DNA from: a virus
Reading direction: 5' to 3' (one strand)
Length of the DNA: 64,000 bases
Virus record (IMG/VR): IMGVR_UViG_3300032334_001937
Span: 48,020-112,019 of that record
Shown here: one piece after another, positions 23,067 through 43,710 of the stretch
Layout: each line of letters starts with the position of its first letter
Position numbering within the stretch: position 1 is the stretch's first letter
Notes under the pieces: generated by a model
The model's input: only the letters and a program-made list of their open reading frames with translations
Database searches by the model: none
What the model was told of the DNA's origin: nothing
Translations under genes and position numbers: made by a program

Positions 23067-24701
23067 TTATTGAGACGCTCTACCTTCACCCTTCGGATTA
23101 CGTCCAGAGACTGTTGCAGGGCCATCTGATTGGTTATTTGTTCTTTCTGCATCTCTAGAACGATTGCCATTTGCTCTTGCATCGGCAGCCTGCCTTGGAC
23201 TTAACTCAAGAGGAGTATCTCCATGCTCTGCCTGTGGAAGATCAAGGATTTCACGAGCTTCATTAGGAAGCATAATCTGATTCTTAACATAACGCTCAAG
23301 AATCTGTGACTGTGCAATCTCATCTGTAAGAGTAAGTTCGTTAAACTTAAACTGAAGAATATCTGTTCTTTCCTTAATAATTTTGCTAATTACCTTCTCA
23401 AGATGCTGTTGTTCTGGACGAGAAACCTGCTCTTTAAATGTGCGATCTTGTGCTAATGCTGCAGCGATTGCTCCTGATTCTGAACCACCAAGCTTAGAAA
23501 TTGGAACTTGATGAGCGATCAAAATATCATCACGATTCTGCTTACGGTATTCCTTAAATGAACCATCCTGAATTCCATTCTCAATTGGTTTCATATCAAA
23601 CTCAACCTTAGAATGATCGTTATCACCAGGTAGTGGGATATACAAAGTTCTGTGTGACTGAGATTTTAGTCCTGTCTGTAGGAATCGGAACATCTTATCT
23701 TCAGCATCAGCCGATAGCTTGGCACCCTTAAGAGTAATTACATATCTTGGTACCGCTTTGTTTTCAAAATAATCAATGTTGTATTGTGAAGCAAGCTGGT
23801 CACCAATAAGTGATGGCAGCGCTGCGATAATATCTGGGACACCATAATAAGTGTTTAGTGGAGAGTAATCCTTGAAATGAATAATTTCATTTGGACGATT
23901 ATCTGCTGTCAGTGGGTTACGGTTAGTTGCTCCAAAATTACGGAAGTAAACAACCTTTGGCCCAATGATTTGAACATATCCATCACGGATACGACGCACA
24001 CGCATTGTTGTTGATGGAATGTGACCAATGTAACCAATCTCACCACTTACAGTTCTACCAACTTCCATATATCCATTACCAGTTGCCTGTAGGTCTGTAT
24101 AAATTTTTTCCATTGTGCGAGTAAAACTGTCATCATCATTTAGTGATTCAAGCCAATCACGAAGTTCTAGTTTTGCTCTTTCAATGCGGTTACGTGCACG
24201 TGCTGTAGCAGCCTGATCTGAATTATTTTCAAGACTCATCATTGTGCGGTCTGTTACATCAAAACGATATCCAAGACCAACAACATTTTCTACCTTTGCA
24301 TCAATGGCAGCATGATTAGCAAAAGATGTATCATAAAAGTTAGCTAGTTCATACATATTGTATGGAGGAGTAATTACATCAAAAAGACCATAGCCATTTC
24401 GGTATACCAAACCAGGATTAATTGCTTTAGAGCCAGAATCCTTTAAGCCTTTTGGATCTGCATTTGCCGAATCAAGATATGGAACACTAAGAAGATCAAT
24501 GTTTGCATTTGTTGCAAGATAGCCTTCTTGTGTCATTGCTTTGTTTACTTGTCTTGAAATACGACGCTTAACATTATCTTCAAGTCCCGTTAAAGATTTT
24601 AATTCTTCCCATGATTTATTAAATGGGTCACTGTTTTTAAATTGACTTTCTGGTTTTTCTGTTGTGCCAAGTCTGGCTTCTAGATAATCTTCGTTATTCA
24701 T
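23067..24701 (-). CDS. Portal protein
   Basis: TGNGYMEV, EIIHFKDYSP, YFENKAVP, PNEARE motifs; start moved to MNNED. Confidence 0.92.
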   Translation of the reverse strand: MNNEDYLEARLGTTEKPESQFKNSDPFNKSWEELKSLTGLEDNVKRRISRQVNKAMTQEGYLATNANIDLLSVPYLDSANADPKGLKDSGSKAINPGLVYRNGYGLFDVITPPYNMYELANFYDTSFANHAAIDAKVENVVGLGYRFDVTDRTMMSLENNSDQAATARARNRIERAKLELRDWLESLNDDDSFTRTMEKIYTDLQATGNGYMEVGRTVSGEIGYIGHIPSTTMRVRRIRDGYVQIIGPKVVYFRNFGATNRNPLTADNRPNEIIHFKDYSPLNTYYGVPDIIAALPSLIGDQLASQYNIDYFENKAVPRYVITLKGAKLSADAEDKMFRFLQTGLKSQSHRTLYIPLPGDNDHSKVEFDMKPIENGIQDGSFKEYRKQNRDDILIAHQVPISKLGGSESGAIAAALAQDRTFKEQVSRPEQQHLEKVISKIIKERTDILQFKFNELTLTDEIAQSQILERYVKNQIMLPNEAREILDLPQAEHGDTPLELSPRQAADARANGNRSRDAERTNNQSDGPATVSGRNPKGEGRASQ

Positions 24702-25095
24702 CAAACGCTGCCCCGCCTGCTTTATTAAGAGTTTGCTGTGCTGCATGCCATGCGCCAAGATCGTTCATGGAAGGAATTAATCCAGCTTTCATGCGATCTA
24801 TTTGCTCAGAATGCTCTTCATCAGTGATTCTTGTAAGACCAGGAACAAAAACTGCTTCTCCATCACCTTCATCACCATAATGCTTAGCTGCTGCCTTAAG
24901 TTCTGCAATTTTAGTTAGATCATTACGCATTGACTCAATGTTTAGTACATTCCCACTGCCGTCCGTAAACCACTTGCCATTTGACTTCTTGTACACATAT
25001 AGACCCCAGTTATACTTCTTTTCAATAACTTGTCTACGTACATTTTTGACAATTGGTTCGCCAGTTTCAGGGTTGATTAAAGAATCCATAACCAT
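24694..25095 (-). CDS. Hypothetical protein upstream of portal
   Basis: 133 aa, overlaps the portal start, preceded by a TGGTATACT promoter. Confidence 0.7.
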   Translation of the reverse strand: MVMDSLINPETGEPIVKNVRRQVIEKKYNWGLYVYKKSNGKWFTDGSGNVLNIESMRNDLTKIAELKAAAKHYGDEGDGEAVFVPGLTRITDEEHSEQIDRMKAGLIPSMNDLGAWHAAQQTLNKAGGAAFDE

Positions 25096-27176: not shown

Positions 27177-27332
27177 TTATTTACCTTTCATAGCAAAAAT
27201 AAGTTAAGTACTTTGTAAATTCCAAAGTAGTTCCTAAGTATAGCACAGTTTAAAAAGAAAAACACGCTCACAAAGAGCGTGTCAATCTATAGTTTATAGT
27301 TAGTACTTTTGCAAAACAAAAGTAGTCTTACA

Positions 27333-27962
27333 TTATGAGATCCAGTGGTTTGGAACCATATACTTTAGTCCACTCTTAACAAGGTGTGCTGTATGATGGT
27401 AAGGTGGTGATGGCGGAAATACAATAATGCTTCCTGCTTTTGGTTTTACAGCAAATGTATAATTTCCAGTTCTTTCTGCTTCAGCAAAATCTGGGGTTGG
27501 TCCTGCTTGCTGCAAAATTCCATCAGGAGAAGAAATAGTAAATGATATTTCTCCGCCCTCATAATCATCATTAAGGTACATGACAAAAGAAACCTTTAGT
27601 CTTTCATCTCCTTCTTGCTGATCAAAGTGAGCGCCCATAAATGTACCAGGTTCATATCTTTTTATTGGGTACATAGGAAATAGCTTTGGCTCATCTGTAA
27701 TTCCTTGTGCAGCTGCATAGTCTTTTGCTACAACATCAAAGGCATCTCTAATTGTATTATAGATATAGTTATTTTTTTCATCATCATTCTCTGGAGTATA
27801 GATGGTCTTGTCTGTTCCATACACATAGTGCTGTCCACTACAGGCCATCCATTCACCCCAGGGATCTTCATTATCTTTGTCAATTGCCTCAACAAGTTTT
27901 TGAGGGTCTTGAATTACGTTTGTGTAATAGTAGACCTTTTCTTCAAGTATTTCTCTTTCCAT
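27333..27962 (-). CDS. 2OG-Fe(II) oxygenase, prolyl 4-hydroxylase-like
   Basis: HFD...YLNDDYEGGE...HHTA...KY. Confidence 0.88.
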   Translation of the reverse strand: MEREILEEKVYYYTNVIQDPQKLVEAIDKDNEDPWGEWMACSGQHYVYGTDKTIYTPENDDEKNNYIYNTIRDAFDVVAKDYAAAQGITDEPKLFPMYPIKRYEPGTFMGAHFDQQEGDERLKVSFVMYLNDDYEGGEISFTISSPDGILQQAGPTPDFAEAERTGNYTFAVKPKAGSIIVFPPSPPYHHTAHLVKSGLKYMVPNHWIS

Positions 27963-27973
27963 TTTATATCTCC

Positions 27974-28633
27974 TTAGTATCTATTCTTTTCGTAGTGATC
28001 TTTTTCTCTAATGAAACCTACTATGACATATCTTATTGGTCCATCACCAACAAATCTTACTCCGTGTTCATATTTTTCAGTTCCTGGAAAAACCAATAAA
28101 GAACCTGGTTTTGGCTTTAGTTCTATGTCAAGATGTTCAAAGAAAAGTTCTCCATCTACATAGTCATCATTTAAATAAAGAATTGTTGCATAGCGAATTG
28201 AGGGGTCTGTGTGCTGATCTGTATGTGATTTTAATTGAACCTTTTCCTGCATTCTTTGCATAGTTCCAAATCCACCAAGCTCTAAGCTGTCATCTAATTG
28301 TTTAACTAAAGAGTTTACTCTAGTATGAATTGTTCCAGTTACTTCATATTCAGTAATCTGCAAATTTTTATCATTCCAGTTTTTAGTAATTTCAAACTTA
28401 CCTTCTGCAACTAAGTTATCAACATCATCTCTTCCAAACTTTTCAAGACAAAATCTTTTTAAGTTTTTTACATACTCTATTGACCAGTCTTCTTCTGGTC
28501 TTGTATTAATAATATCCCATAAAGATGCAAGTTCTTCTTTAGACAAAAAATCCTCTACAAGCAAAATTTCATCGTCAATATCTGTACATTTAAAGTTATT
28601 TTTTTCAAATGACTCTTTTAAAAAATTAGACAT
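27974..28633 (-). CDS. 2OG-Fe(II) oxygenase, prolyl 4-hydroxylase-like
   Basis: HTD...YLNDDYVDGE...HGV...RY. Confidence 0.88.
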   Translation of the reverse strand: MSNFLKESFEKNNFKCTDIDDEILLVEDFLSKEELASLWDIINTRPEEDWSIEYVKNLKRFCLEKFGRDDVDNLVAEGKFEITKNWNDKNLQITEYEVTGTIHTRVNSLVKQLDDSLELGGFGTMQRMQEKVQLKSHTDQHTDPSIRYATILYLNDDYVDGELFFEHLDIELKPKPGSLLVFPGTEKYEHGVRFVGDGPIRYVIVGFIREKDHYEKNRY

Positions 28634-29384
28634 TATTCTCCAGATCCTCTATCTTGTACCTATTACCACTAGCATCTATTTTATACCCTTGTTTGATGAG
28701 CTCTTGCCATTCTGCTCTTTCAATCTCTTGCTTTGCCCTAGTTTCTTTCATTTCTGCTGCCCAAGCATCTCTTACCTCTTGTGGGTATGCAGATTCTTCT
28801 CTATCATCCCAGAAAGATCCGATTGTATATCTAATACCCTTGGTGATTAAAGAAACTTCATGCATATTATTAAAACCACCATCAAATACTGCAAGCATTC
28901 CAACTTTAGGCTTAATTTCTATATCTTGATCTGGAAATTTTAAAAGTCCACCCTCAAAATCATCATTAAGGTATAAAAATCCTGCATATCTGCTTCTTGT
29001 AAATGCTCCAGAATTTCCATGCTCGTCTGTGTTGTCGGAGTGAATTCTTGCATATGCTCCTGGCTCCCATTTTTGAGTATGATATCCAATCTTACAAATT
29101 GTTTTTGGATCAAGGTCGTGTACTGAAGCAATGGCTTCTGGCATAACTTTCTCAATATCAGAAAACATTGTAGGTGAAAGTCCAGCATCTAAAACTTCTT
29201 GATCATTATCTTGTGGAGTTACAGAAGAATATGATTCATAAAAAGATATTGGCATCCAAGAAAGCTTGCCGTTATGTGCTTGAGCATCTAGTGCTTGAAT
29301 CATTTTTTTACAGTTTTCTTCAGAAATAAAGTTTTCGTAAACAACTATATCCTTTGTGATTCTTTTTTTATTATCTAGGTTCAT
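28626..29384 (-). CDS. 2OG-Fe(II) oxygenase, prolyl 4-hydroxylase-like
   Basis: HSD...YLNDDFEGG...HEV...RY. Confidence 0.88.
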   Translation of the reverse strand: MNLDNKKRITKDIVVYENFISEENCKKMIQALDAQAHNGKLSWMPISFYESYSSVTPQDNDQEVLDAGLSPTMFSDIEKVMPEAIASVHDLDPKTICKIGYHTQKWEPGAYARIHSDNTDEHGNSGAFTRSRYAGFLYLNDDFEGGLLKFPDQDIEIKPKVGMLAVFDGGFNNMHEVSLITKGIRYTIGSFWDDREESAYPQEVRDAWAAEMKETRAKQEIERAEWQELIKQGYKIDASGNRYKIEDLENNV

Positions 29385-30241
29385 CTTATTCTTCTCTCTT
29401 TGTCGGCATTAATTTTATTTGGATTCTTTTTTCTAAATTCTTCCATAATCTCTGACCATTCTTTGGCCCACTCTTCTTTTCCATAGTCAGCTTCTCTTTT
29501 GAGCCACATCTTGTCGCCAACTTCATACTTCATCCAGTACATTCTGGATAGATATTTTTTTGCTCCTCTTGGTGGGAGCACTCCATGAATATAAACCTGA
29601 TCATTTTTAGTCAATACATCTGGGTGGCCAGAAGGGAAAAGTAAGTAATCTCCAGCCTCTGGCTTATACATGTAGGCTTCACCATCAACAATAAAATCAA
29701 TCTCTCCACCCTCATAGTCATCATTAAAGTAAGCTAAAGCAGTTATAGCAAATTTATATCCTGGTGTTACCATTGGTTCTCTTACGTAGTCGGAATGATA
29801 TGTCATTGCTACTGGATCTTCTATATCTTCTCTATATCTTGCTATTGACGGCCCATTGGTTTTCCATAATTTTACAGTATCACCTTCATGGGTTGTGACC
29901 ATTGCATCTTTATCAAAATCAACACTATTTCTAGATATATAGTCTTCAGTTGCTAAATAAAAGTTTTCAAAAAGTTCTACCATTGCAGCTTTTTGCTCTT
30001 CGTCTTTTTCTGTTGCTGCTTCTACACTTTTAATTTCTTCTATGCTCATGGCACCTGGGCAACCTTTAAATAATGGATTAAGGTACTCTCCAAAACCAGA
30101 CCATTGTGACCAAGGGCTAAGTATTGCATCTTTATCTTCATCTTTTAGGATTGAGAATGTTTTTGAAATATCTTTAAACAGATTTTTATAAACAAATATC
30201 TTAGGATATATTTCAATACAGTCTAAAACCTTTTCTTTCAC
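29381..30241 (-). CDS. 2OG-Fe(II) oxygenase, prolyl 4-hydroxylase-like
   Basis: HSD...YFNDDYEGGE...HGV...KY. Confidence 0.88.
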   Translation of the reverse strand: MKEKVLDCIEIYPKIFVYKNLFKDISKTFSILKDEDKDAILSPWSQWSGFGEYLNPLFKGCPGAMSIEEIKSVEAATEKDEEQKAAMVELFENFYLATEDYISRNSVDFDKDAMVTTHEGDTVKLWKTNGPSIARYREDIEDPVAMTYHSDYVREPMVTPGYKFAITALAYFNDDYEGGEIDFIVDGEAYMYKPEAGDYLLFPSGHPDVLTKNDQVYIHGVLPPRGAKKYLSRMYWMKYEVGDKMWLKREADYGKEEWAKEWSEIMEEFRKKNPNKINADKERRIR

Positions 30242-30912
30242 GGCTTTCTATCTCCCGTATGCTCTGTAATTTCCCAGAAGAACGGGCATGTATATCTAAT
30301 ACCACTCTTGATCTCTGTTACTCCATGGATATAGTTTTTATCCCCTGGGAAGAAATATGCTGCACCCTTTTTGGGCTTGAACTGTACACCCTGTAATGGG
30401 AAGTATAGCTCTCCGCCTTCGTAGTCTTCATTCAAATAGAATAGGCTTGAAAGATCATAGTTTGGGAAATCATTAGGCAAGCCAGCATCTGGTCCCTCAT
30501 GAAGTTCTTTATCTGCGTGAGGTTTTTGAAATTGTCCTGGAAGCCATCTAACAATAGTTGTTCCAGTAGGTGTAACCTTTACCTTGTAGAACTCTTCAAC
30601 AATTGGCTTTAGTCTTTGAAACAATCCTGCAATTACAGGAGCAATAGCTGGATCATTTTTATCTAATGTTGGACTAGTCGCTACTCTGTCTTTCCAATAA
30701 TCTGAATCGTATACAACAGTTCCGTTTTCATTTACGTGACTCTGTGTTACATCCCAAATAGTTATAGACTTTGCAGCCTTTTCTAAAAAATCAATTTCTT
30801 CTTGTGTCATAAAGTTTTCTAGTTCAATAATCATTTCTTTTCCATTGCCAAACCAGCCCGAAGGGGTCATTGATGGTTTTCTAACTACTACTGAGGCATC
30901 CATATTATCCAT
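30238..30912 (-). CDS. 2OG-Fe(II) oxygenase, prolyl 4-hydroxylase-like
   Basis: HAD...YLNEDYEGGE...HGV...RY; leaderless promoter TGATATAAT. Confidence 0.88.
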   Translation of the reverse strand: MDNMDASVVVRKPSMTPSGWFGNGKEMIIELENFMTQEEIDFLEKAAKSITIWDVTQSHVNENGTVVYDSDYWKDRVATSPTLDKNDPAIAPVIAGLFQRLKPIVEEFYKVKVTPTGTTIVRWLPGQFQKPHADKELHEGPDAGLPNDFPNYDLSSLFYLNEDYEGGELYFPLQGVQFKPKKGAAYFFPGDKNYIHGVTEIKSGIRYTCPFFWEITEHTGDRKP

Positions 30913-30940
30913 AATAGCATTATATCATAGGCAAAAAATC

Positions 30941-31396
30941 CTATAATTCCCTTTCTATTTCTAGTTGTTTTAAAAATCTTTCTGGATTAAATCTCCAGTT
31001 ATCTTTTGCAAAAGAAGTTACAATCTTGATACAAACATCTTCATAGTCTTCTTTTTTTAGCTTATTTTTAAGCCCATAAAGTGCATCAACTGTGTCTATA
31101 TAGTTTTGCCTAACAAAAGATGGATCTCCCGCATGATTTCTTTTTAGCACTTTTGTTGTAACTTTTCCAGAAGGTTCGTACAAAGAAACAGTTAAAAACT
31201 CTTTTGCAAAACCAGCATCCTGATACATTTCATATCCTTCTAAAGCTTGGCTTAAGCTATCAAAAGATATAATAGATCTTACTGGCTTTTCACCATCTCT
31301 GGCAACAGTTATAATGTAATGACTTATTTTACCTAGCTTACAGTTTTCCACATATTCATTGACTATATCTGTGTGTATTGAGTTTAATTCACTCAT
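30941..31396 (-). CDS. Hypothetical protein; fusion of two domains encoded separately at 51297..51512 and 50643..50819
   Basis: Manual alignment (see findings). Confidence 0.7.
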   Translation of the reverse strand: MSELNSIHTDIVNEYVENCKLGKISHYIITVARDGEKPVRSIISFDSLSQALEGYEMYQDAGFAKEFLTVSLYEPSGKVTTKVLKRNHAGDPSFVRQNYIDTVDALYGLKNKLKKEDYEDVCIKIVTSFAKDNWRFNPERFLKQLEIEREL

Positions 31397-32109
31397 TATC
31401 TACCGTGGCCTGTTTGATCATCTACAAAAAGCTTTAAGGTTTTTACTTCATGAGAACCAAGAGATTCTTGTTTTTCATTAACAGCATTTCTGTACCAATC
31501 TGTCCACTGACCACCAGAATTTACAACTTGTGCTGCTTCACCATAAGCTTTATTTGCTTCTACTCTTTTTCTATCTTCGTCCTTATAGTCAAAGATATTA
31601 ATTACTGTATTGTTTAGGTTAGTCAGTGATATAGGAATCAACGTTGCAATTGGAGTTCCTGCCTTAATAACAACTTTTTTATTTGCTACTTTTGCCTTAA
31701 TTGCTAAGGGTAGTGGGTTATCATAAAAAGATGTACTTATTAAAGAAGACATAGTTTCAAACTCATCACTAAAATAATTTACTGGATTAATAGAAAAAAT
31801 GCTAACGTCTTGATCTGTTTTAAATATTAATCCAGTACTTAAACTTACAGAGGATTGCCCTCTTCCAGAGTATGCTGTTTTTGGATTAAATATTTCTACA
31901 CGATCAGGCGTTTGATCATTAACTCCATCCCAAATAAACTCAATGTCTTCTTTGCAGGACAGACTATATCCAATAACATTTGCCTGTGTTACAGGGAAAC
32001 ATCTATATGCGTGATTTTCAGAAGTTTCATCCATCCAGTCTCTTTTAATTGACATTGAAGATATCTCAAAAATACAGTCTGGAGTTTTTTCAACTGAAAT
32101 ATTAAACAT
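31396..32109 (-). CDS. DUF6065-like protein
   Basis: KRDWMD..HAYRCFPVTQAN motif and IKAGTPIATLIP, a family often found near phage oxygenase clusters. Confidence 0.65.
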   Translation of the reverse strand: MFNISVEKTPDCIFEISSMSIKRDWMDETSENHAYRCFPVTQANVIGYSLSCKEDIEFIWDGVNDQTPDRVEIFNPKTAYSGRGQSSVSLSTGLIFKTDQDVSIFSINPVNYFSDEFETMSSLISTSFYDNPLPLAIKAKVANKKVVIKAGTPIATLIPISLTNLNNTVINIFDYKDEDRKRVEANKAYGEAAQVVNSGGQWTDWYRNAVNEKQESLGSHEVKTLKLFVDDQTGHGR

Positions 32110-32760
32110 TTAGTCTTCTACATACATTTCTGCAGTATGGAACTTTTTGTTGTAGTCAAGCATGGTTACAATAGAATATTTTGTTCCAGAGTGAACTGGC
32201 ATTGCCTGGTGTGGATACATAAAGTTTGAAGGGAAGATAAATAGATCTCCTGCTTCTGGCTTTATCTTTAAGTCTTGAAGTCTAAAGTATAGCTCTCCGC
32301 CTTCGTAGTCATCGTTTGGATAAGCAACTAATGATACTGTGCAGTTATAAGAGAACCCATGATCATGGTGCTCCTTAAAGTGCTGACCTGGACCATACTT
32401 AATAAAGTTAAATGCTTCCCAGTACTTTAGCTCTCCCAGATTATAGTCTTTGCAGTAATCCTGTACTGCTGGAGCTTGAACATCATAAACATCTTGCCAT
32501 AGTGACTGTAGAGCAAGTGACTGTGGGCGTGTATCATGTTCAAGATTTTCCTTCTTAAACTTAAAATCAACACAGTCTCTATATTCTGGCATTAGCTGAC
32601 GGTATCCAACATATGCTGGCAACCAGCTATACTTTGTTTCATCTCCAACTTGGCCTAAGTTAGACTCAAGTCTATTAACAACATCAATTTCTTTCTTAAT
32701 TACATTCTTATAGCAATGAATTCCATTACCAAGATTAACTTTGTCAGTCCAAGTGCTCAT
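32110..32760 (-). CDS. 2OG-Fe(II) oxygenase, prolyl 4-hydroxylase-like
   Basis: HHD...YPNDDYEGGE...FPSNFMYPH...KY. Confidence 0.88.
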   Translation of the reverse strand: MSTWTDKVNLGNGIHCYKNVIKKEIDVVNRLESNLGQVGDETKYSWLPAYVGYRQLMPEYRDCVDFKFKKENLEHDTRPQSLALQSLWQDVYDVQAPAVQDYCKDYNLGELKYWEAFNFIKYGPGQHFKEHHDHGFSYNCTVSLVAYPNDDYEGGELYFRLQDLKIKPEAGDLFIFPSNFMYPHQAMPVHSGTKYSIVTMLDYNKKFHTAEMYVED

Positions 32761-32769
32761 TTTTTCTCC

Positions 32770-33537
32770 TTATTTATATTCTCTTCTTGTCCAAATTTGA
32801 TTCTTGTAAACACCACCATCGGGTTTACGATAAAAAGTTGCATTCTCTACCATTTTATCATACATATCTTTTTGATTTAGAATTTCAACTTCATTTTCCC
32901 AGTTTTCTCTCTTAAACGGTAAGATCTGTACGTATGGAGTTCCAGCTGGGATGGTTCCTTCCCAATCTTGTGCGATAAAGAATGGAAGACTTCCAATTAA
33001 TTCAACCTTATCAGAATCAACAACCCCAGTTGTATTCATGAAAGGAAGATCAAACCTATTCATTGGAGTCATAAATAGTGAACTATATCCTTCTGGTAGT
33101 CCTAGTGACCATTCTGACTGCCAAGCAAAATGTTCTTTATAGAATCCTTTTGGATGCTCAAACTGTGGCATAGGCGGTCTCTTAGTACAAAAATCTTTAT
33201 GCTTTTCATCAACTACCTTAACATCAATTTTTCCATTACTATCTTTAAAAAATTGAATATCACATGGAGTTAGTAAAACATAACCAGTTGAAAATCCATC
33301 CATAATAGCAGGACATGCTTTCCAGGTAGGAACCTTGCCATAATCATTTGTTGTTCCTTCTTTTGGAAAAGGACAAACCTGATTATTTGCTGGAAAGTAT
33401 TCCCCTGTGTAAGGATTCTTTGCAAATCTATCTGCATCTTTATACCAATCTGGAATTACCTTTTGTGTAGGCAATGGTACAGAAATACTATCTTTTTTTA
33501 ACCAAGGACGAAAAGCTTTAAATATTACTTTGTTCAT
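32770..33537 (-). CDS. DUF6065-related protein
   Basis: PDWYK, KACPAIMD, GVVDSD, IPAGTPYVQILPFKRE motifs. Confidence 0.55.
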   Translation of the reverse strand: MNKVIFKAFRPWLKKDSISVPLPTQKVIPDWYKDADRFAKNPYTGEYFPANNQVCPFPKEGTTNDYGKVPTWKACPAIMDGFSTGYVLLTPCDIQFFKDSNGKIDVKVVDEKHKDFCTKRPPMPQFEHPKGFYKEHFAWQSEWSLGLPEGYSSLFMTPMNRFDLPFMNTTGVVDSDKVELIGSLPFFIAQDWEGTIPAGTPYVQILPFKRENWENEVEILNQKDMYDKMVENATFYRKPDGGVYKNQIWTRREYK

Positions 33538-34247
33538 TTATGACTTAACTCATTAATATCTGTCATAATAACAACACAATATTTTGTGCCAGATTCCATT
33601 GGAAGGGATGCATGCTCATAGATATAGTTTGAAGGGAATACTGCAATATCTCCAACCTTTGGCTTGTATACTAAATTATCAAGTCTTGGAAACTTTAAGT
33701 CTCCTCCAACATAGTCATCATTAATGTAGATAACAGCAGACACTGTGCAGTTATATGCTGGACCGTGATCTGCGTGAATATTGAAGTGTGTACCTTCACC
33801 CTCATATTTTACAAAATTAAATGCTTCATAGTAAACAACATTAATGCCCCAATAACGTGCATAGTCATCTATACAAACCTTTAGCTTTTGATAAATCTCT
33901 TCATGTAGGTCAACAAGCTCTGCATTTGATTCATCCTTTGGTCCAAGGTCAGATTGCTTGTATTTAAAATCAACACAATCTCTAGCCTTTTTAATTGGAG
34001 TGGTAGAGTTGGTTACTTGAGCTTCATTCCATTTATACTTTTTGCCTCCTGAAAGATTTGACTCAAGCACATTGATATAACGCTTTGAGTCTTCTTCAGA
34101 AAAAACATTATGGTAAACATTTAGGCCTAATCCTGGATTACTAACAGATATCCCTTTATCAGGCAAGGCTCTTGCTACTCTGCTAGAAGCAGTCTCTGAT
34201 CTATCCTTAGTAAACCATGGATTTTCGTTTTCATTATATATATCCAT
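33534..34247 (-). CDS. 2OG-Fe(II) oxygenase, prolyl 4-hydroxylase-like
   Basis: HAD...YINDDYVGG...FPSNYIYEH...KY; close paralogue of 32110..32760. Confidence 0.88.
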   Translation of the reverse strand: MDIYNENENPWFTKDRSETASSRVARALPDKGISVSNPGLGLNVYHNVFSEEDSKRYINVLESNLSGGKKYKWNEAQVTNSTTPIKKARDCVDFKYKQSDLGPKDESNAELVDLHEEIYQKLKVCIDDYARYWGINVVYYEAFNFVKYEGEGTHFNIHADHGPAYNCTVSAVIYINDDYVGGDLKFPRLDNLVYKPKVGDIAVFPSNYIYEHASLPMESGTKYCVVIMTDINELSHK

Positions 34248-34316
34248 TTATCCCCCGTGTAATTTAGCTATATGTAAAAGTATATCATATAAGAGGAAAT
34301 ACTGTATAATCTTTAT

Positions 34317-35234
34317 ATGAAGACTATATATGTTTCAATAGCAGCATACAATGAGCCACACCTTGACCTTATGCTATCAAATTGTTTAGAAAATGCAGAA
34401 TACCCAGAGCGTGTACATTTTGGAATTTGGTGTCACTATAATGATAATACCAGGCCTAATTTTGATAAATATAAAAATGTAATGCATGCATTTACAGATT
34501 ACCCCGCAATGCTTGGACTTTGTATTGGCAGGTTAAACTCTTTGTCTTTTTATAATGGAGAAGACTATTGCCTTCAACTTGATGCTCATATGCTTTTTGA
34601 AAAAAATTGGGATACAAAAATAATTAATGCTTTTGAAGAAATAAAAAGGGAACATGAAAAACCAATCATATCAACCTATGTTCCTTGGTGGTCAATATCA
34701 AATAATATAATTAATTATTACAGTAATGATGCAAATGTGTATTGCTCTCCAATGATTATAAATAAAGCTATTGGAAATGGCGAAGGATACCCAAAACTTA
34801 CAACAGAACATTTTCCCTGGGATAAAGAGGTTTATAAAGAACATGCACTAGTCACTGGTCATTTTATATTTTCTGAACCATCTGTACTTGAAGATGTATC
34901 TCCAGATCCACAAGTAATGTTTGGTGGAGATGAAATAACATTAGCATTAAGACTTTGGACAAGAGGCTATAGAATTTTTACCATCAAAAATCCAATAGTT
35001 TGGCATTTAAATAAATTTGATGGTGATCTATACTCAAAAGATCGTTTAATGAGAGCAGAAACCCCAGGAAGAGAAACAGAGCTTCATGGCAAAAGAAGTT
35101 ATACCAGTATGCAAAGAGTAAAAAATATTTTAACTGGTAAAATACTTGGTTATTGGGGAGCTCCAACAATAGAAAAATTAAAAGAATTTGAAAAAGTAAT
35201 TGATCTTGATTTTAATAAGTTTTATGAAGGTTAA
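34317..35234 (+). CDS. GT60/Gnt1-like polypeptide alpha-GlcNAc transferase (Pfam GlcNAc-type)
   Basis: TIYVSIAAY, AEYPERVHFGI, YNGEDYCLQLDAHMLF, FGGDEITLALRLWTRGY match the motif pattern of Skp1-hydroxyproline GlcNAc transferases; leaderless promoter TATAAT-N6-ATG. Confidence 0.8.
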   Translation: MKTIYVSIAAYNEPHLDLMLSNCLENAEYPERVHFGIWCHYNDNTRPNFDKYKNVMHAFTDYPAMLGLCIGRLNSLSFYNGEDYCLQLDAHMLFEKNWDTKIINAFEEIKREHEKPIISTYVPWWSISNNIINYYSNDANVYCSPMIINKAIGNGEGYPKLTTEHFPWDKEVYKEHALVTGHFIFSEPSVLEDVSPDPQVMFGGDEITLALRLWTRGYRIFTIKNPIVWHLNKFDGDLYSKDRLMRAETPGRETELHGKRSYTSMQRVKNILTGKILGYWGAPTIEKLKEFEKVIDLDFNKFYEG

Positions 35235-35800
35235 AGAGCATATTCTTTAGAAGATATCCACATTGGGATAGCATATCTTGTTTTATTAATTTTATCTATC
35301 TCATGAGCAAAAATTTTTCCTTCAGATGGAAAAAATACAAAATCTCCTACTTTTGGATTATACTCAAAATCAGCAAACGGAAACCTCAATATACCTGTAT
35401 CCTCTAATGAGTTCAGATATATGATTCCACTGTACATAAACTGTGGATTAATGCCTTTATCTACGTCTTCGTGTAATCGTAATACTGATCCTGGACAATG
35501 CTTAGAGAACCATAGGTTTGATACTGCTATATCTGTTTTATTATAAAATTTACCTATTTGATTAATTACCCTTGGAAAAATTTTATCTTTAAAATAGTGA
35601 TTAAGATGATTATGCTTGCTAAAGTCTTCAAAAGAGTTTTGAAACAAAAAATCTTTTCCATACTTTAAAGCATATCTTTTATTGTTTTGGGTTGATTCAA
35701 AAACTTCTAAATTATTTTCAATAAAGTCTATAATGCGAGAAGCCTCATCTTCCGTTATAAAGTTATTTATAACTTGGATGAGGCCCCCCGACTGACTCAT
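35231..35800 (-). CDS. 2OG-Fe(II) oxygenase, prolyl hydroxylase-like
   Basis: HED...IYLN...HEI...RY; starts 8 nt after the Pro-rich FN3 gene ends. Confidence 0.82.
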   Translation of the reverse strand: MSQSGGLIQVINNFITEDEASRIIDFIENNLEVFESTQNNKRYALKYGKDFLFQNSFEDFSKHNHLNHYFKDKIFPRVINQIGKFYNKTDIAVSNLWFSKHCPGSVLRLHEDVDKGINPQFMYSGIIYLNSLEDTGILRFPFADFEYNPKVGDFVFFPSEGKIFAHEIDKINKTRYAIPMWISSKEYAL

Positions 35801-35808
35801 GCTACTTC

Positions 35809-36657
35809 TTAGAATCTTGTATCACGGAAGTACGGTGGTACGAAGTAAGGGAAGTACGGACCGAAGCTTGGTGGGAAGAACGGGAAGAACGGTGGGAAGA
35901 ACGGGAAGTACGGGAAGTACGGTGGGAAGAATGGGAAGTACGGTGGGAAGAACGGGAAGTACGGGAAGTACGGTGGGAAGAATGGGAAGAATGGAGGGAA
36001 GAATGGGAAAAATGGTGGGAAGAATGGAAAGAACGGTGCAATAGTAGTAACACTAGATGTAGTAGTTGATGCTGAAGTTCCTAGAGCATTGATAGCAACA
36101 ATTGTATATGTTTGAGCAGCTGGTGATGCAGCAGAAGGTGTATTATCAGCAGCATCATAGGAAGTTGCTGAACCAGAAATTCCAGTAAAGTTTCCTCCAT
36201 CAGATGAAGTAATTGTATATGATGTAATAGCACTACCACCAGTTGCAGGAGCAGTCCAGCTAATCCGATTAAGGTTTGCAGAAACTGTAGTTGCGCTCAC
36301 TGACTGTGGTGTTTGTGGTACTGTGGTAATAGCAATTGCAGAAGAAGGATCAGAAGCTTGTGATGTTCCAGCTGCGTTTGTTGCTGTTACTGTAAAAGTT
36401 ACAGATGCATTAGCAGTAATACCAGACACAGTAACTGGAGAAGAAGCTCCAGTTCCAGTTTGACCTGTGCTTGCTGTTACTGTAAAGGATGTTGCAGCAG
36501 GGGATAGCACAGGTAAAGAGAAGGAAACAGTTGCTTGACCATCACCATAAGCACGACCTGTTCCTGTATTAGTTGCAGATACGCCTGTAGGCTTTAGTGG
36601 CTCCAAGAAATCGTTTGATGCCTGGGAGTGTCTTCCTGCTTTTTTACCTGATGCCAT
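35809..36657 (-). CDS. Fibronectin type III domain protein with a C-terminal Pro/Phe/Tyr repeat
   Basis: FN3 signatures (FTVTATNAAGTS, ISWTAPATGGSAITSYTI), then PFFPFFPPFFPFFPP...PPYF. Confidence 0.88.
   Translation of the reverse strand: MASGKKAGRHSQASNDFLEPLKPTGVSATNTGTGRAYGDGQATVSFSLPVLSPAATSFTVTASTGQTGTGASSPVTVSGITANASVTFTVTATNAAGTSQASDPSSAIAITTVPQTPQSVSATTVSANLNRISWTAPATGGSAITSYTITSSDGGNFTGISGSATSYDAADNTPSAASPAAQTYTIVAINALGTSASTTTSSVTTIAPFFPFFPPFFPFFPPFFPFFPPYFPYFPFFPPYFPFFPPYFPYFPFFPPFFPFFPPSFGPYFPYFVPPYFRDTRF
35826..36035 (-). repeat. Imperfect tandem repeat encoding (P)PFF/PYF units
   Basis: Plus strand shows repeated gggaagaac / gggaagtac / ggt units. Confidence 0.9.
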
Positions 36658-36679: not shown

Positions 36680-39493
36680 TTATGCTGTCAAGTCGCCGTA
36701 AACAACCCATGTATTTGTAGCTCTCTTGAAAAGAGTTGCAGATGACCATTGAGTTCTTAGCTTTAGACCTGGTGTTGCGTTTACTGTAACTCCAGTATCT
36801 CCTGCGATTGTTACCTGACCTGTTGAAGTCTGAAGGATATCAATTGATGTTCCGACTGGATAAGCAACTGCTGAGTTTGTTGGAATTGTGATAGTTGTTC
36901 CTGATGAAGATGCTACTTCAACAAGGCTATCTCTTTCTGTAAGTGATGAAAGTGTGTATGATGCTGTCTTCTGTACGATTGGTGTCCGTGAAGGAACGCC
37001 TTCCTTTGTCTGTGTACCGTCTGTAAATGCCACTCCAGATGCTGCAACTGTTACAAGACCTGTAAATGTTGGAGCATTGATTGGTGACTTAGCAGCAAGG
37101 TCAGATGTTAAACCTGAAATCTTTGACTGTGCAATTGCTGCTGATGCGTTTACATCTGCATCTACGATTGCTCCATCAGCGATCATTGCTGAAGTAACTC
37201 CACCAGTTGCAATATCAAGTGTTCCTGGTGTAGATTCTGTTAGACCAGAACCTGCTGTTACAGCCTTAGCAGCGTTGTATGCTACGTAGGTAATATTGCT
37301 TGAACCAATTGTGATTGCTGATGTGTTAGAACATACGTAACCGTATCCTGCACCAGCTGTACCTTCAAGTACGAGACAGAAGTCTCCGCCTGCAAGCTCA
37401 CCTGATGGAGTATTATCTGCATCAGCTGCACGAGACCATGTTGAAGCATTTACAACGTAGATACCGTTTGTCTTCTGGTCTGTCTGGTCCTTAACAAGAA
37501 CACGGTCACCAGCAATTACTGATACTCCGTCAATTGTCTGTGTTCCGCTTAGTGTAATATTTGCTGTTGTAGCAACACGAACTGGCTGGTGGAAGTTAAT
37601 TCCAGAAACTACGTTATCAACGTATGCCTTTGTTGCTGCATGTAGGTCTGCTGATGGAGCACCTGCAAGAGTAAGATCTCCTGTCATTGTTCCGCCAGAC
37701 TTTGACAACTTAGCATCAAGCTGTGTTTGAATTGCTGATGTTACACCGTCAACATAGCCAATTTCAGTAGCTGAAACATTTCCAATTGAAGTAGTACTTG
37801 GAAGAACTACAGTTCCTGTAAATGTTGGGTCTGCCTTTGGAGCCTTAAGATCAAGTGCTGTCTGTGTAGCAGTTGAAACTGGCTTATTTGTATCTGATGT
37901 GTTGTCAGCATTTCCAAGACCAACATCTGACTTTGTAATACCAGTTGGTGTATTAATAACTGGTGATGTTAAAGTCTTGTTTGTAAGAGTTTCTGTCTTA
38001 GTTGCAGTTGACTTAGCATCAAGCTGTGTCTGGATTGCAGAAGTAACACCATCAAGGTATCCAATTTCTGTGTCAGAAACACCTGAAACTACTGCTTGCT
38101 TTCCATTAAGCTGTGTTTGGATAGAAGATGTAACTCCATCAACATATCCAAGCTCTGTTGCAGATACTGTTGAAGATACTGCTAGCTTTGTCCAGTCAAT
38201 CGCAGCTGATGCATTAATGTCAGCGTTTACGATTGTGTCATTAGCAATCATTGTGCTTGTGACTGTACCTGTATCTGTTGTTGCAACAAGGTTAGCTGTA
38301 TTTGAAATTCCGTGAACAGCAGTTGTATCTGAGTTATGTGTGCCAATTGCATCATCAGCATAAGTCTTTGTTGCTACTGTTGAGTCAATATCAATTGTAA
38401 GTGTGTTTGATGCGTCATCGTAGTTATGCTGTAGTCCAGTACCTGAATTTAATGCACCAGCAATTGAGTCAACTGCAAGTTCACCAACATACTCTGAGTC
38501 AATGGCAAAACGATCATTGTCTGCATCCCAAGAAAGTCCTGTACCAACAAGGCCAGGGTAATCATTTGATACTCCACTAACAGCACTTGATACATAATCT
38601 TGTGTTGCAAGTGTTCCGCTTGCATCTGGAAGTGTAACTGTTCTATCTGCAGTTGGATCTATTACTGAAAGTGTAGTTTCAAAACCATCTGCTGTTGCAC
38701 CTTCAAAAATTACCTGGTTATTTACGTTAATAGCTGTGCTGTTTACTGTAGTTGTAGTACCGTTTACAGTTAGGTTACCAGAAAGTGTTAAATCTGCTGC
38801 ATTAACAGTACCTGTAAATGTTGGGTTTGCCTTTGGTGCTTTAAGATCAAGAGCTGTTTGTGCAGCTGATGAAACTGGCTTATTTGCGTCAGATGTATTA
38901 TCTACGTTGCCAAGACCTACTGAAGACTTTGTAAGTGCTGCAACTGCAGTTGATACTGCTCCGTCAGCATAAGTCTTTGTAGCAAGTGCTGAAGTATCAG
39001 CGATTCCATGAATATTAGTTGTATCTGCTTCGTGGTTTGAAAGAGCAGTATTTGAAGCCTTTGCATCAAGAGCAGTTTGTGTTGCTGTTGAGACTGGCTT
39101 ATTAGCATCTGAAGTATTGTCTACATTGCCAAGTCCAACGTGTGACTTTGTAACACCAGAAACTGTTCCTGTAAATGTTGGGTTAGCCTTTGGAGCCTTA
39201 AGGTCAAGGCTTGTTGAAAGTGTTGTAAAGAATGCTGGATCATCATTGATTGCTGCTGCAAGTTCATTAAGAGTATTTAATGCTCCTGGTGCTCCATCAA
39301 TAAGGTCATTAATTCCTGCAAGTGCACTTTCAGCATCTGTGAAGTAAGTAAGGTCAGCCCAGTGATTTGTGCCATCACCAATCTTAAATTTATTTGTGTC
39401 TGATTCCCAGCCGATTTCTCCTGCGTTGAGAATTGGGTTAGCGCCTGACCACTGTGATGCGGTTCCTCTGCGCTGTTGCATTCTAGTTGCCAT
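36680..39493 (-). CDS. Fibre protein with an Mtd/hyaluronidase-like N-terminal domain and internal repeats
   Basis: QRRGTASQW...GEIGWESDTNKFKIGDG. Three copies of VGLGNxDNTSDxNKPVS, three of KAPKAxPTFTG, three of ExGYxDGVTSxIQTQL. Confidence 0.8.
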   Translation of the reverse strand: MATRMQQRRGTASQWSGANPILNAGEIGWESDTNKFKIGDGTNHWADLTYFTDAESALAGINDLIDGAPGALNTLNELAAAINDDPAFFTTLSTSLDLKAPKANPTFTGTVSGVTKSHVGLGNVDNTSDANKPVSTATQTALDAKASNTALSNHEADTTNIHGIADTSALATKTYADGAVSTAVAALTKSSVGLGNVDNTSDANKPVSSAAQTALDLKAPKANPTFTGTVNAADLTLSGNLTVNGTTTTVNSTAINVNNQVIFEGATADGFETTLSVIDPTADRTVTLPDASGTLATQDYVSSAVSGVSNDYPGLVGTGLSWDADNDRFAIDSEYVGELAVDSIAGALNSGTGLQHNYDDASNTLTIDIDSTVATKTYADDAIGTHNSDTTAVHGISNTANLVATTDTGTVTSTMIANDTIVNADINASAAIDWTKLAVSSTVSATELGYVDGVTSSIQTQLNGKQAVVSGVSDTEIGYLDGVTSAIQTQLDAKSTATKTETLTNKTLTSPVINTPTGITKSDVGLGNADNTSDTNKPVSTATQTALDLKAPKADPTFTGTVVLPSTTSIGNVSATEIGYVDGVTSAIQTQLDAKLSKSGGTMTGDLTLAGAPSADLHAATKAYVDNVVSGINFHQPVRVATTANITLSGTQTIDGVSVIAGDRVLVKDQTDQKTNGIYVVNASTWSRAADADNTPSGELAGGDFCLVLEGTAGAGYGYVCSNTSAITIGSSNITYVAYNAAKAVTAGSGLTESTPGTLDIATGGVTSAMIADGAIVDADVNASAAIAQSKISGLTSDLAAKSPINAPTFTGLVTVAASGVAFTDGTQTKEGVPSRTPIVQKTASYTLSSLTERDSLVEVASSSGTTITIPTNSAVAYPVGTSIDILQTSTGQVTIAGDTGVTVNATPGLKLRTQWSSATLFKRATNTWVVYGDLTA

Positions 39494-41869: not shown

Positions 41870-42316
41870 TTAAGCCTTCAACCCAATACGTGCATAACGT
41901 AGGGTGATAGGGGTTATTCCTTGGGCTGGTGTAACAGTGAGGGCAACCGTGTTACTAACCCTGGAGACGCTAATGGTGCCAATATTCCCATCGGTGTCTA
42001 TTGTGCCATACTCGCTAACAGAAACATCTTCTCCGTCAATCAAGATGGTCATCTCTGTGGCGTAAAATTTATTATCACCAGCAGAAGTCTTTGCTATGGA
42101 GATAATGTACTTTACCATTCTCCATGTTGTTGCATCAAAATTATCAAACACAGTAACATTTGTAATGTCACTAATTGTGTTATCGTTGTTACCAGATGAA
42201 CCAAGATTAGTTGCTTGTCCAGCGGTAGAATCAATTAAATCTACGTAATCTTCCTGAGTAGGACGATCACCAGTTTGAAACTTAGTCTTTACGTTTGTGA
42301 GCGATGTGTAGGCCAT
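41870..42316 (-). CDS. Virion accessory protein
   Basis: FQTGDRPTQEDYVDLIDS; C-terminus resembles that of 40010..41854. Confidence 0.6.
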   Translation of the reverse strand: MAYTSLTNVKTKFQTGDRPTQEDYVDLIDSTAGQATNLGSSGNNDNTISDITNVTVFDNFDATTWRMVKYIISIAKTSAGDNKFYATEMTILIDGEDVSVSEYGTIDTDGNIGTISVSRVSNTVALTVTPAQGITPITLRYARIGLKA

Positions 42317-42337
42317 GTATGAATTATATCACGTATT

Positions 42338-42562
42338 TTAAAGTATATAGTTAGAAAAGCCAATAATCTGAATACCAATTCCAGGGATATTATTTATATC
42401 GTGACCTGGGATTTGAATGTTTGTTAAACGAATTCTATATGGAAGAGTATCGTTAATTATTGAAAGCCTTGTAGGGCTAGAGATGAAGGTTTTGTGTTCT
42501 CTTACTTCTTCAACTACTCTAGTAATTACAGGGTTTTTAGTAGTAATTACTGTTGTTGCCAT
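42338..42562 (-). CDS. Hypothetical protein
   Basis: 74 aa, translationally coupled to the upstream gene. Confidence 0.6.
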   Translation of the reverse strand: MATTVITTKNPVITRVVEEVREHKTFISSPTRLSIINDTLPYRIRLTNIQIPGHDINNIPGIGIQIIGFSNYIL

Positions 42563-42984: not shown

Positions 42985-43147
42985 AGTTCTTTTATTATAT
43001 CATAATAAGTAATAATACATTTTGTTATCAAATCGTTATAAAGATAATGGACAAAACGGACATTAAAGTTGTACTAGGTAGTAGATTATGTTATACTAGA
43101 TTATGAGACCAATCAAGGTCTCATTCGTTTCTTAGGAGGTAAAAACT

Positions 43148-43702: not shown

Positions 43703-43710
43703 ATAATAAT

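What the first reader, a model, noticed from the sequence alone, without database searches (positions are those of the whole stretch)
27333..36657. Putative phage-encoded hydroxyproline O-glycosylation pathway with a dedicated Pro/Phe/Tyr-repeat substrate
Seen: eight prolyl-hydroxylase-like 2OG-Fe(II) oxygenases, two DUF6065-like genes and one glycosyltransferase form a contiguous block of about 8.5 kb. It adjoins an FN3 protein whose last ~70 aa are almost only P, F and Y. One oxygenase starts 8 nt after that gene, which lies at the end of the fibre gene run. Established: GT60 enzymes (Dictyostelium/Toxoplasma Gnt1) add GlcNAc to hydroxyproline made by a prolyl 4-hydroxylase (PhyA) on Skp1, and plant extensins are Pro/Tyr repeats that are hydroxylated and then glycosylated. 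Inference: the phage encodes a eukaryote-like writer set that hydroxylates the different Pro contexts (PP, FP, YP), possibly also beta-carbons of Phe/Tyr, and glycosylates them on a virion appendage, for adhesion, receptor binding or shielding. A RiPP-like reading, with the repeat as a multi-core precursor, is an alternative.
Basis: partly seen in the sequence, partly recalled or inferred. Interest (0 to 1): 0.92.

Follow-up and report, generated by a model that had tools for sequence, protein, structure and literature searches.

The report
Phage fibre tail with hydroxylase cassette
An uncultured lake phage, probably of actinobacteria, ends a fibre-region protein in a proline/phenylalanine/tyrosine tail followed by eight collagen-type hydroxylase genes and a sugar-transferase gene; tail and enzymes are gained and lost together, so the tail is the best candidate substrate, but no chemistry is shown.

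Summary
Window 27333-36657 holds eight PF13640 oxygenases, one DUF6065 gene plus a distant paralogue, one PF11397 (GT60) glycosyltransferase, and an FN3 protein whose residues 209-277 are 96% P/F/Y.

- Oxygenase 6 folds like peptidyl prolyl 4-hydroxylases.
- In IMG/VR, 49 of 58 and 36 of 47 Pro/Phe-tailed proteins have such an oxygenase within 2 kb downstream. None of 40 unrelated collagen-fibre loci has one.
- In 29 of 32 relatives with 73-96% identical portals the upstream flank holds RNR but no oxygenase and no P/F tract. In four inspected loci the last fibre gene directly precedes RNR.
- GT60 is accessory: absent from three complete relatives that keep tail and oxygenases.
- All 11 GT60 loci with a Pro-aromatic tract have it within four genes. 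Six of these have Tyr-rich repeats and no detected hydroxylase, so hydroxyproline as acceptor is unproven.
- DUF6065 has a dUTPase fold and matches the conserved-Cys protein of the published Syn9 dioxygenase array.

This scan found the same Pro/Phe-tail plus oxygenase pairing in at least seven other genomes. I found no publication describing it. No modification has been shown.

The parts
35809..36657 (-). FN3 protein (282 aa) ending in the Pro/Phe/Tyr tract; last gene of the fibre run; candidate substrate
   Evidence: fn3 E 3.5e-9; at least 248 relatives in IMG/VR; many homologues continue in frame into a Hint domain
35827..36036 (-). Pro/Phe/Tyr tract, residues 208-277, mostly PFFPFFP-type heptads, followed by RDTRF
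   Evidence: translation; 21/51-nt tandem DNA repeat; the same tail closes a 685-aa protein at genome 44701-46758
35231..35800 (-). oxygenase 8 (189 aa), starts 8 nt after the tract gene; rare type that travels with GT60 in the closest relatives
   Evidence: PF13640 E 8e-7; only 6 of 645 related oxygenases are of this type
34317..35234 (+). GT60-family glycosyltransferase (305 aa), opposite strand, 4-nt convergent overlap with oxygenase 8
   Evidence: PF11397 E 8.5e-34; invariant D89-x-H91, W98, D99, E206
33534..34247 (-). oxygenase 7 (237 aa), oxy6/7 clade, divergent neighbour of GT60
   Evidence: PF13640 E 5e-10; GT60-adjacent oxygenases in L006, L009 and L085 are of this clade
32770..33537 (-). 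DUF6065-like paralogue b (255 aa)
   Evidence: 24% identity to DUF6065a, E 1e-4; homologues beside RNR in haloarchaeal viruses
32110..32760 (-). oxygenase 6 (216 aa), prolyl-4-hydroxylase fold
   Evidence: PF13640 E 5e-15; AF2 pLDDT 92; Foldseek top hits 3gze, 4iw3, PHD2, 5c5t, 6t8m
31396..32109 (-). DUF6065a (237 aa), dUTPase-fold protein with invariant Cys37, abuts oxygenase 6
   Evidence: PF19541 E 2e-24; pLDDT 84; VIA Z 11.2 to dUTPases, next fold Z 3.9; matches Syn9 gp43
30941..31396 (-). conserved 151-aa protein of unknown function inside the block
   Evidence: no Pfam hit; found in 21 related ORFs
30238..30912 (-). oxygenase 5 (224 aa)
   Evidence: PF13640 E 3e-9
29381..30241 (-). oxygenase 4 (286 aa)
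   Evidence: PF13640 E 2e-6
28626..29384 (-). oxygenase 3 (252 aa)
   Evidence: PF13640 E 3e-8
27974..28633 (-). oxygenase 2 (219 aa)
   Evidence: PF13640 E 3e-10
27333..27962 (-). oxygenase 1 (209 aa), last gene of the block
   Evidence: PF13640 E 6e-11
27261..27283 (-). terminator-like hairpin plus T run between oxygenase 1 and RNR; places the block in the fibre transcription unit
   Evidence: 9-bp stem, 5 GC pairs; a consensus match only
36680..39493 (-). fibre protein (937 aa) directly upstream of the tract gene
   Evidence: Mtd_N E 9e-12

Best explanation
The region is a fibre-module cassette that tailors a virion protein. The FN3 protein, and a second 685-aa tail protein, end in an extended Pro/aromatic tract. 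The co-transcribed prolyl-4-hydroxylase-like Fe(II)/2OG oxygenases hydroxylate that tract: most likely Pro to Hyp, with the diverged paralogues taking different sequence contexts or residues. In this phage and a minority of others, a GT60 GlcNAc-type transferase then adds a sugar to a hydroxyl on the tract. That hydroxyl could be Hyp, Tyr or a nearby Ser/Thr. The result would be a hydrophilic, extensin-like tip on a fibre-associated protein. Shown: gene content, protein families, folds, and the linkage and joint loss of tract and enzymes. Inferred: every chemical step, virion location, and biological role. My sub-estimates: the tract is a substrate of at least one array oxygenase, about 0.5; GT60 acts on the tract, about 0.35; the acceptor is specifically hydroxyproline, about 0.2.
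For: (1) All eight block enzymes are PF13640 with an intact HxD...H and a K/R. The nearest solved sequences to oxygenase 6 are LH3, B. anthracis P4H and mimivirus L230. Its model matches Chlamydomonas P4H with a (Ser-Pro)5 peptide, PPHD, PHD2, PBCV-1 vCPH and Dictyostelium PhyA. (2) Linkage: 49 of 58 tract proteins in FN3-selected loci, and 36 of 47 in loci picked only by a PPFF DNA pattern, have an oxygenase within 2 kb downstream. Carriers range from 91 to 839 aa. (3) The same order occurs in a 170-kb phage that shares only 29 of 215 genes with this one. (4) Joint absence: in 29 of 32 relatives with 73-96% identical portals the 7-10 kb upstream flank holds RNR but no oxygenase and no P/F tract. 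In four of six inspected loci (L349, L355, L372, L382) the last fibre gene directly precedes RNR. (5) Control: none of 40 unrelated phage loci with collagen-like fibre proteins holds such an oxygenase. (6) A terminator-like site follows the last oxygenase, with no comparably strong one between the fibres and the block. (7) GT60: 19 of 74 viral GT60 loci have an oxygenase as a direct neighbour. All 11 loci with a Pro-aromatic tract have it within four genes.
Against: There is no biochemical or proteomic evidence. Much of the linkage comes from related phages, so the counts are not independent events. GT60 is missing from three complete relatives that keep tract and oxygenases. Syn9 has a dioxygenase array with a DUF6065 homologue after its fibre genes but no Pro-aromatic tract. 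A close relative places a mini-array after a collagen-like gene. Five further oxygenases lie elsewhere in this genome. The second tract protein is about 25 kb from any oxygenase. The dUTPase fold of DUF6065 has no obvious role in protein hydroxylation. Virion location of the FN3 protein is inferred only from gene position.
Confidence: 0.5

Rival explanations
1. The array makes or tailors a small molecule or non-ribosomal peptide, the reading given for the Syn9 array by Iyer et al. 2010. The neighbouring tract gene is unrelated to it.
For: The Syn9 array of ten dioxygenases plus a dUTPase-fold Cys protein was read this way (PMC2938197). The DUF6065 homologue is Syn9 gp43. The paralogues are very diverged, 20-43% identity. 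The genome also encodes a carbamoyltransferase and an Asp/Asn beta-hydroxylase.
Against: The block has no backbone-forming enzyme, halogenase, transporter or peptidase. The enzymes belong to the peptidyl-prolyl hydroxylase fold group. Tract and array are tightly linked and jointly absent.
Confidence: 0.13
2. The oxygenases modify other proteins, either host proteins (as Pseudomonas PPHD modifies EF-Tu) or other phage structural proteins such as the collagen-like protein at 43749-44477.
For: PPHD and PHD2 are among the top fold matches. LH3 and L230 lysyl hydroxylases are the best sequence matches. The collagen-like protein has X-Lys-Gly triplets. One relative places oxygenases directly after that gene.
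Against: None of 28 full-length homologues of the collagen-like gene has an oxygenase within 2.5 kb downstream, and none of 40 unrelated collagen-fibre loci has any. The block sits in a late structural gene run, not among early genes.
Confidence: 0.15
3. The block acts on nucleotides or DNA: base hydroxylation followed by glycosylation, as in base J. DUF6065 would be a nucleotide-handling enzyme beside RNR.
For: DUF6065 has a dUTPase/dCTP-deaminase fold. The genome has no PF00692 dUTPase. DUF6065b homologues lie beside RNR in haloarchaeal viruses and in relative L367, without oxygenases.
Against: No oxygenase reaches the Tet_JBP cut-off (19 bits against 34.9). The fold matches are protein hydroxylases. 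A terminator-like site separates the block from RNR. GT60 and DUF6065 sit beside Pro-aromatic tract genes in several lineages.
Confidence: 0.07
4. There is no specific substrate link. The oxygenases are general auxiliary genes (for example for 2OG or oxygen handling), and the adjacency reflects a hypervariable insertion spot after the fibre genes.
For: Multi-copy oxygenases are common in aquatic phages, and no substrate for them is named in PMC3037559 or PMC11561400. Five copies are scattered through this genome. The block is an insertion/deletion relative to close kin.
Against: This does not explain why the tract gene is gained and lost with the array. It also does not explain why tracts of different repeat type and on different carriers sit 5-122 nt upstream of arrays in distinct phage types.
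Confidence: 0.1

Closest known systems
Chlorovirus PBCV-1 prolyl 4-hydroxylase (vCPH, PDB 5c5t) with the virus's own proline-rich repeat proteins
   Same: A virus-encoded P4H-type enzyme together with virus-encoded Pro-rich repeats as presumed substrates. vCPH is among the fold matches of oxygenase 6.
   Different: That is a single enzyme in a eukaryotic virus, with basic PAPK-type repeats (from my memory of Eriksson et al. 1999). Here there are 8-13 diverged paralogues, an aromatic Pro tract on fibre-module proteins, plus GT60 and a dUTPase-fold partner.
Mimivirus L230 lysyl hydroxylase/glycosyltransferase acting on viral collagen-like proteins (PDB 6ax6)
   Same: A virus-encoded hydroxylation followed by glycosylation of a viral structural repeat protein. 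L230 is a sequence hit of oxygenase 6 (E 0.006).
   Different: L230 is one bifunctional protein acting on Lys in G-X-Y repeats. Here the genes are separate, the tract has no Gly periodicity and no Lys, and the GT is of family GT60.
Skp1 pathway of Dictyostelium and Toxoplasma: PhyA prolyl 4-hydroxylase followed by Gnt1 (GT60)
   Same: A P4H-type enzyme paired with a GT60 enzyme. Gnt1 requires prior hydroxylation (PMC6939170). PhyA (6t8m) is a fold match.
   Different: That pathway modifies one Pro on a cytoplasmic regulator and extends the sugar with further GTs. Here the candidate is a long repeat on a structural protein, GT60 is optional, and GT60 also occurs beside Tyr-rich repeats without a hydroxylase.
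Tandem dioxygenase array of Synechococcus phage Syn9 (gp41-gp54), Iyer et al. 2010, PMC2938197
   Same: A tandem array of diverged dioxygenases with a dUTPase-fold, conserved-Cys protein, placed directly after the tail-fibre genes.
   Different: Syn9 has Trp halogenases and a JmjC member, and only one of its array genes hits my P4H-type profile. It has no Pro-aromatic tract and no GT60. The published reading was secondary metabolism.
Plant extensins / hydroxyproline-rich glycoproteins
   Same: Pro/Tyr-rich extended repeats that are hydroxylated by P4H and then O-glycosylated.
   Different: Extensins have Ser-Pro(3-5) motifs, use arabinosyl and galactosyl transferases of other families, and are secreted by eukaryotes. 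This is a resemblance only.

Membership tests
GT60 / Pfam PF11397 (GlcNAc transferase) | Significant match to the family profile | tested here: met
   E 8.5e-34, 118 bits against a cut-off of 21, profile positions 98-303; positions 1-45 also match
GT60 / Pfam PF11397 (GlcNAc transferase) | GT-A type metal-binding DxD/DxH motif retained | tested here: met
   D89-A-H91 is invariant in 12 and in 17 homologues. That this is the catalytic motif rests on my knowledge of Gnt1 and ppGalNAc-transferases
GT60 / Pfam PF11397 (GlcNAc transferase) | Transfers GlcNAc from UDP-GlcNAc to Hyp (Gnt1) or Thr (T. cruzi enzyme) | not testable with these tools
   The family's acceptors are taken from PMC6939170; donor and acceptor here are unknown
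Peptidyl prolyl 4-hydroxylases (PF13640 group) | HxD...H iron triad and a distal K/R for 2OG | tested here: met
   His and distal His in 13 of 13 paralogues, Asp in 12 of 13 alignment columns; K in oxygenases 1, 4, 6, 7 and R in 2, 3, 5, 8
Peptidyl prolyl 4-hydroxylases (PF13640 group) | Fold closest to solved peptidyl P4Hs | tested here: met
   Oxygenase 6 only: pLDDT 92; top matches 3gze, 4iw3, PHD2, 5c5t, 6t8m, 7zsc; TM about 0.6. The other seven were not folded
Peptidyl prolyl 4-hydroxylases (PF13640 group) | Hydroxylates peptidyl proline | not testable with these tools
   Pro cannot be told from Lys or another residue: LH3 and L230 lysyl hydroxylases are the best sequence hits
Syn9-type tandem dioxygenase array (Iyer et al. 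2010) | Several diverged dioxygenases in tandem with a dUTPase-fold, conserved-Cys protein | tested here: met
   Eight oxygenases at 20-43% identity; DUF6065a fold Z 11.2, invariant C37, matches Syn9 gp43 at 6.6e-14
Syn9-type tandem dioxygenase array (Iyer et al. 2010) | Trp halogenases and a JmjC/MINA member in the array | tested here: not met
   No such Pfam hit in any block ORF
RiPP-like precursor plus tailoring enzymes | Short precursor peptide with leader/core, plus a protease or exporter | tested here: not met
   Carriers are fibre-region proteins of 91-839 aa, many with FN3 domains; the same tail sits on a 685-aa tail protein; no protease or transporter in the block
TET/JBP plus glucosyltransferase DNA base modification | Oxygenase of the Tet_JBP family | tested here: not met
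   The best match is oxygenase 5 at 19 bits against a cut-off of 34.9
dUTPase (PF00692), considered for DUF6065 | Match to the dUTPase sequence family | tested here: not met
   No PF00692 match anywhere in the genome at E 0.1. Only the fold is shared

The most novel reading that the evidence does not exclude
Aquatic phages carry a dedicated system that decorates fibre tips. A Pro-aromatic tract is made hydrophilic by hydroxylation and then O-glycosylation. Phe-only tracts need the hydroxylase array to create acceptor hydroxyls, whereas Tyr-rich tracts are glycosylated directly by GT60. The dUTPase-fold DUF6065 protein would be a uridine-nucleotide-handling partner. This would give the first natural substrate for the abundant phage 2OG oxygenases and the first hydroxyproline or tyrosine O-glycosylation system in a bacterial virus.
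Probability: 0.2. Interest if true: 0.88.

Novelty: new variant of a known kind. Interest (0 to 1): 0.7.

Why it matters
Multi-copy Fe(II)/2OG oxygenases are among the commonest unexplained genes of marine and freshwater phages. They have been noted in cyanophage genomes since at least 2010 and are usually labelled DNA repair or auxiliary metabolism (PMC3037559, PMC11561400). This locus and its relatives name a concrete, cheap-to-test substrate: a 70-residue Pro/Phe/Tyr tract. If it holds, phages would be shown to build hydroxyproline-rich, sometimes glycosylated, fibre tips. That bears on host recognition and on the origin of collagen- and extensin-type modification. It would also supply a set of diverged peptide hydroxylases with possibly different specificities.

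Tried and rejected
I used IMG/VR scans instead.
- Megablast of the region and tblastn of the FN3 protein against cultured phages gave nothing. The BLAST low-complexity filter hides the tract.
- GT60 has no relative of known structure by sequence, and its 141 homologues carry no informative name.
- DUF6065 in cellular genomes: found in 32 of 301 sampled Alphaproteobacteria. This tally includes the unpublished genome G042. There are no conserved neighbours and no adjacent oxygenase in 14 loci, so this was uninformative.
- Genome-contig hits of DUF6065a were phage contigs binned into lake MAGs.
- A DNA scan for the Tyr-type repeat gave only 5 stretches: two already known, two apparent chance matches and one too short to read.
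- The collagen-like protein as main substrate is rejected on synteny: 0 of 28 homologues have an oxygenase within 2.5 kb downstream.
- No literature on DUF6065, phage GT60 or phage prolyl hydroxylation of fibres was found.
- Alignment A2 was too diverged for a genome scan.


Full report
**Setting.** The window is bases 48020-112019 of a complete 112,019-bp IMG/VR phage record with direct terminal repeats.
- The portal is 45% identical to portals of Streptomyces phages.
- The genome encodes a WhiB protein.
- Near-identical contigs are binned in Lake Mendota MAGs.
- Together these point to a freshwater phage, probably of actinobacteria.
- On the minus strand the order is: fibre genes (41854 down to 36680), the FN3 protein, the oxygenase block, a terminator-like hairpin at 27283-27261, class II RNR, portal, capsid and tail genes.

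**Observation.**
- All eight oxygenases hit PF13640 above cut-off.
- All eight, and five further copies elsewhere in the genome, keep the HxD...H triad and a distal Lys or Arg.
- They are only 20-43% identical to each other, so this is an old, diverged set and not a recent expansion.
- The GT matches PF11397 at E 8.5e-34, with an invariant D-A-H motif.
- GT60 contains Gnt1, which needs hydroxyproline made by PhyA, and a T. cruzi enzyme that uses Thr (PMC6939170).
- Residues 209-277 of the FN3 protein are 96% P/F/Y.
- The same tail, ending RDTRF, closes a 685-aa protein behind the distal tail genes, outside the window at genome 44701-46758.

**What the enzymes resemble.**
- The nearest solved sequences to oxygenase 6 are LH3, B. 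anthracis P4H and mimivirus L230.
- Its AF2 model (pLDDT 92) is closest to Chlamydomonas P4H bound to a (Ser-Pro)5 peptide, Pseudomonas PPHD, PHD2, PBCV-1 vCPH, Dictyostelium PhyA and human C-P4H-II.
- This places it among peptide hydroxylases. It cannot fix the target residue.
- No copy reaches the Tet_JBP cut-off.

**DUF6065.**
- The DUF6065a model (pLDDT 84) has a dUTPase/dCTP-deaminase fold. VIA Z is 11.2 and the top 23 matches are all of that superfamily; the next fold scores 3.9.
- It has an invariant Cys37.
- Iyer et al. [quoted passage not shown] My profile hits Syn9 gp43 at 6.6e-14. So the array-plus-DUF6065 unit is a published gene neighbourhood of unknown function.
- In Syn9 the array also follows the tail-fibre genes, but no Pro-aromatic tract is present.
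- DUF6065b homologues sit beside RNR in haloarchaeal viruses without oxygenases.
- The genome has no canonical dUTPase. A nucleotide-related role for DUF6065 therefore stays open.

**Is the tract linked to the array?**
- The tract is a widespread module. 68 proteins were found by the tail alone, and at least 248 FN3 relatives occur in IMG/VR.
- After the tract, homologues carry a short tail, a Hint domain in frame, Cys-rich knots or an S74 chaperone domain. This shows that the P/F frame is the one translated.
- In FN3-selected loci, 49 of 58 distinct tract proteins with at least 1.5 kb of downstream sequence have an oxygenase within 2 kb. 56 of 58 have one somewhere in the locus.
- In loci picked only by a PPFFPPFFPPFF DNA pattern, 36 of 47 do. 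Carriers range from 91 to 839 aa, and gaps to the first oxygenase are 5-122 nt.
- A complete 170-kb phage shares only 29 of 215 genes with this one, yet has the same order: fibre, FN3-(PPFF)12, oxygenases, DUF6065.
- A related 113-kb phage has an SPPLFF-type tract plus a Hint domain in front of its array.

**Joint absence and control.**
- I examined 32 relatives with 73-96% identical portals and at least 7 kb of upstream flank. In 29 the flank holds RNR but no oxygenase and no P/F tract.
- I inspected six of these. In four (L349, L355, L372, L382) the last fibre gene directly precedes RNR. L367 has DUF6065 genes only, and L392 has one oxygenase.
- L349 has 96% identical portal and RNR.
- So the 9.3-kb unit of tract gene plus block behaves as one cassette.
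- As a control, none of 40 unrelated phage loci with collagen-like fibre proteins has any such oxygenase.
- None of 28 homologues of this phage's own collagen-like gene (43749-44477) has an oxygenase within 2.5 kb downstream.
- One close relative does place a mini-array right after that gene.
- The linkage counts come from partly related phages and are not independent events.

**GT60.**
- GT60 is accessory. About 6 of 80 FN3-selected loci have a GT60-like hit. There it lies upstream of the fibre genes, not inside the array.
- Three complete and two near-complete relatives that keep the tract and 6-10 oxygenases have no GT60 at all.
- Only the closest relatives share this window's arrangement. 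There GT60 travels with the rare oxygenase-8 type.
- In a survey of 74 viral GT60 loci, 19 have an oxygenase as a direct neighbour and 30 have one within 3 kb.
- 11 loci hold a Pro-aromatic tract protein, always within four genes of GT60 and usually 1-4 genes upstream.
- Repeat types among these are PPFF, PPSFF, PPPPYF, FPNFPN, PYHA, PYYA, PPVYYA and PTYF.
- The six Tyr-rich cases have no detected P4H-like gene, and five of them have DUF6065 next to GT60. The three Phe-only PPFF/PPSFF cases have oxygenases.
- This fits a GT that needs a hydroxyl on the tract, native on Tyr or made by hydroxylases. It rests on 11 related-by-lineage loci and is only a lead.

**Verdict.**
- The tract is the best available candidate substrate for the oxygenases (about 0.5).
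- GT60 acting on it is plausible (about 0.35).
- Hydroxyproline as acceptor is unproven (about 0.2).
- The RiPP reading is unlikely.
- The rivals are small-molecule tailoring, other protein targets, nucleotide chemistry, and mere insertion-site adjacency.
- This scan reported the same tract-array pairing in at least seven other genomes with similar verdicts. I re-derived the linkage independently. New here are the joint-absence test, the collagen control, the GT60 survey and the identification of DUF6065 with the Syn9 protein.
- I found no publication describing the tract or its link to the oxygenases.

Noticed in passing
window 43749-44477 (-): A collagen-like protein with about 14 G-X-Y triplets, several of them X-Lys-Gly (GPK, GDK, GTK). 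In one close relative (L428) its homologue is followed after 15 nt by two oxygenases and a DUF6065 gene.
   Followed up: yes
window 46548-47108 (+) and 61475-62095 (+); genome 1131-1943, 1940-2530, 4670-5326: Five more PF13640 oxygenases scattered outside the block. There is also an Asp/Asn beta-hydroxylase fragment (genome 4212-4676), a glutathione-peroxidase-like gene (3420-4205) and a carbamoyltransferase (9636-11099).
   Followed up: partly
genome 44701-46758 (-), outside the window: A 685-aa protein behind the distal tail genes. It has four PPTF units, a Cys-rich mini-domain, and the same Pro/Phe/Tyr tail ending RDTRF as the FN3 protein.
   Followed up: partly
P0004, P0006, P0011, P0020, P0021, P0037, P0054; G003 42283-43911: In many homologues the tract runs straight into a Hint/intein-like domain that starts with Cys and often ends in His-Asn. 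This would leave the tract as a reactive C-terminus after self-cleavage. Others end in Cys-rich knots or an S74 chaperone domain.
   Followed up: no
L349, L355, L372, L382 (relatives with 76-96% identical portals): These relatives lack the whole cassette. They carry an extra ORF of 1150-1230 aa between RNR and portal, where this phage has only a 133-aa ORF (window 24694-25095).
   Followed up: no
L367 4641-7132; Halorubrum virus VOLN27B (L108): DUF6065-type genes occur beside RNR with no oxygenases: three in tandem in L367 and one in haloarchaeal Hafunaviridae. This suggests that DUF6065 also has a role independent of the oxygenases.
   Followed up: partly
genome 17170-17343 (-), outside the window: A WhiB-family gene (E 1e-11). 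With the Streptomyces-phage-like portal, it points to an actinobacterial host.
   Followed up: partly
window 7501-15291 (-): A very long 2596-aa ORF in the tail module, presumably the tape measure. Other first-stage notes of this scan propose embedded enzyme domains in it. I did not examine it.
   Followed up: no
window 56206-56280, 60750-60821, 62552-63097: tRNA-Asp and tRNA-Arg(CCG) genes and an HNH endonuclease lie in the early region.
   Followed up: no
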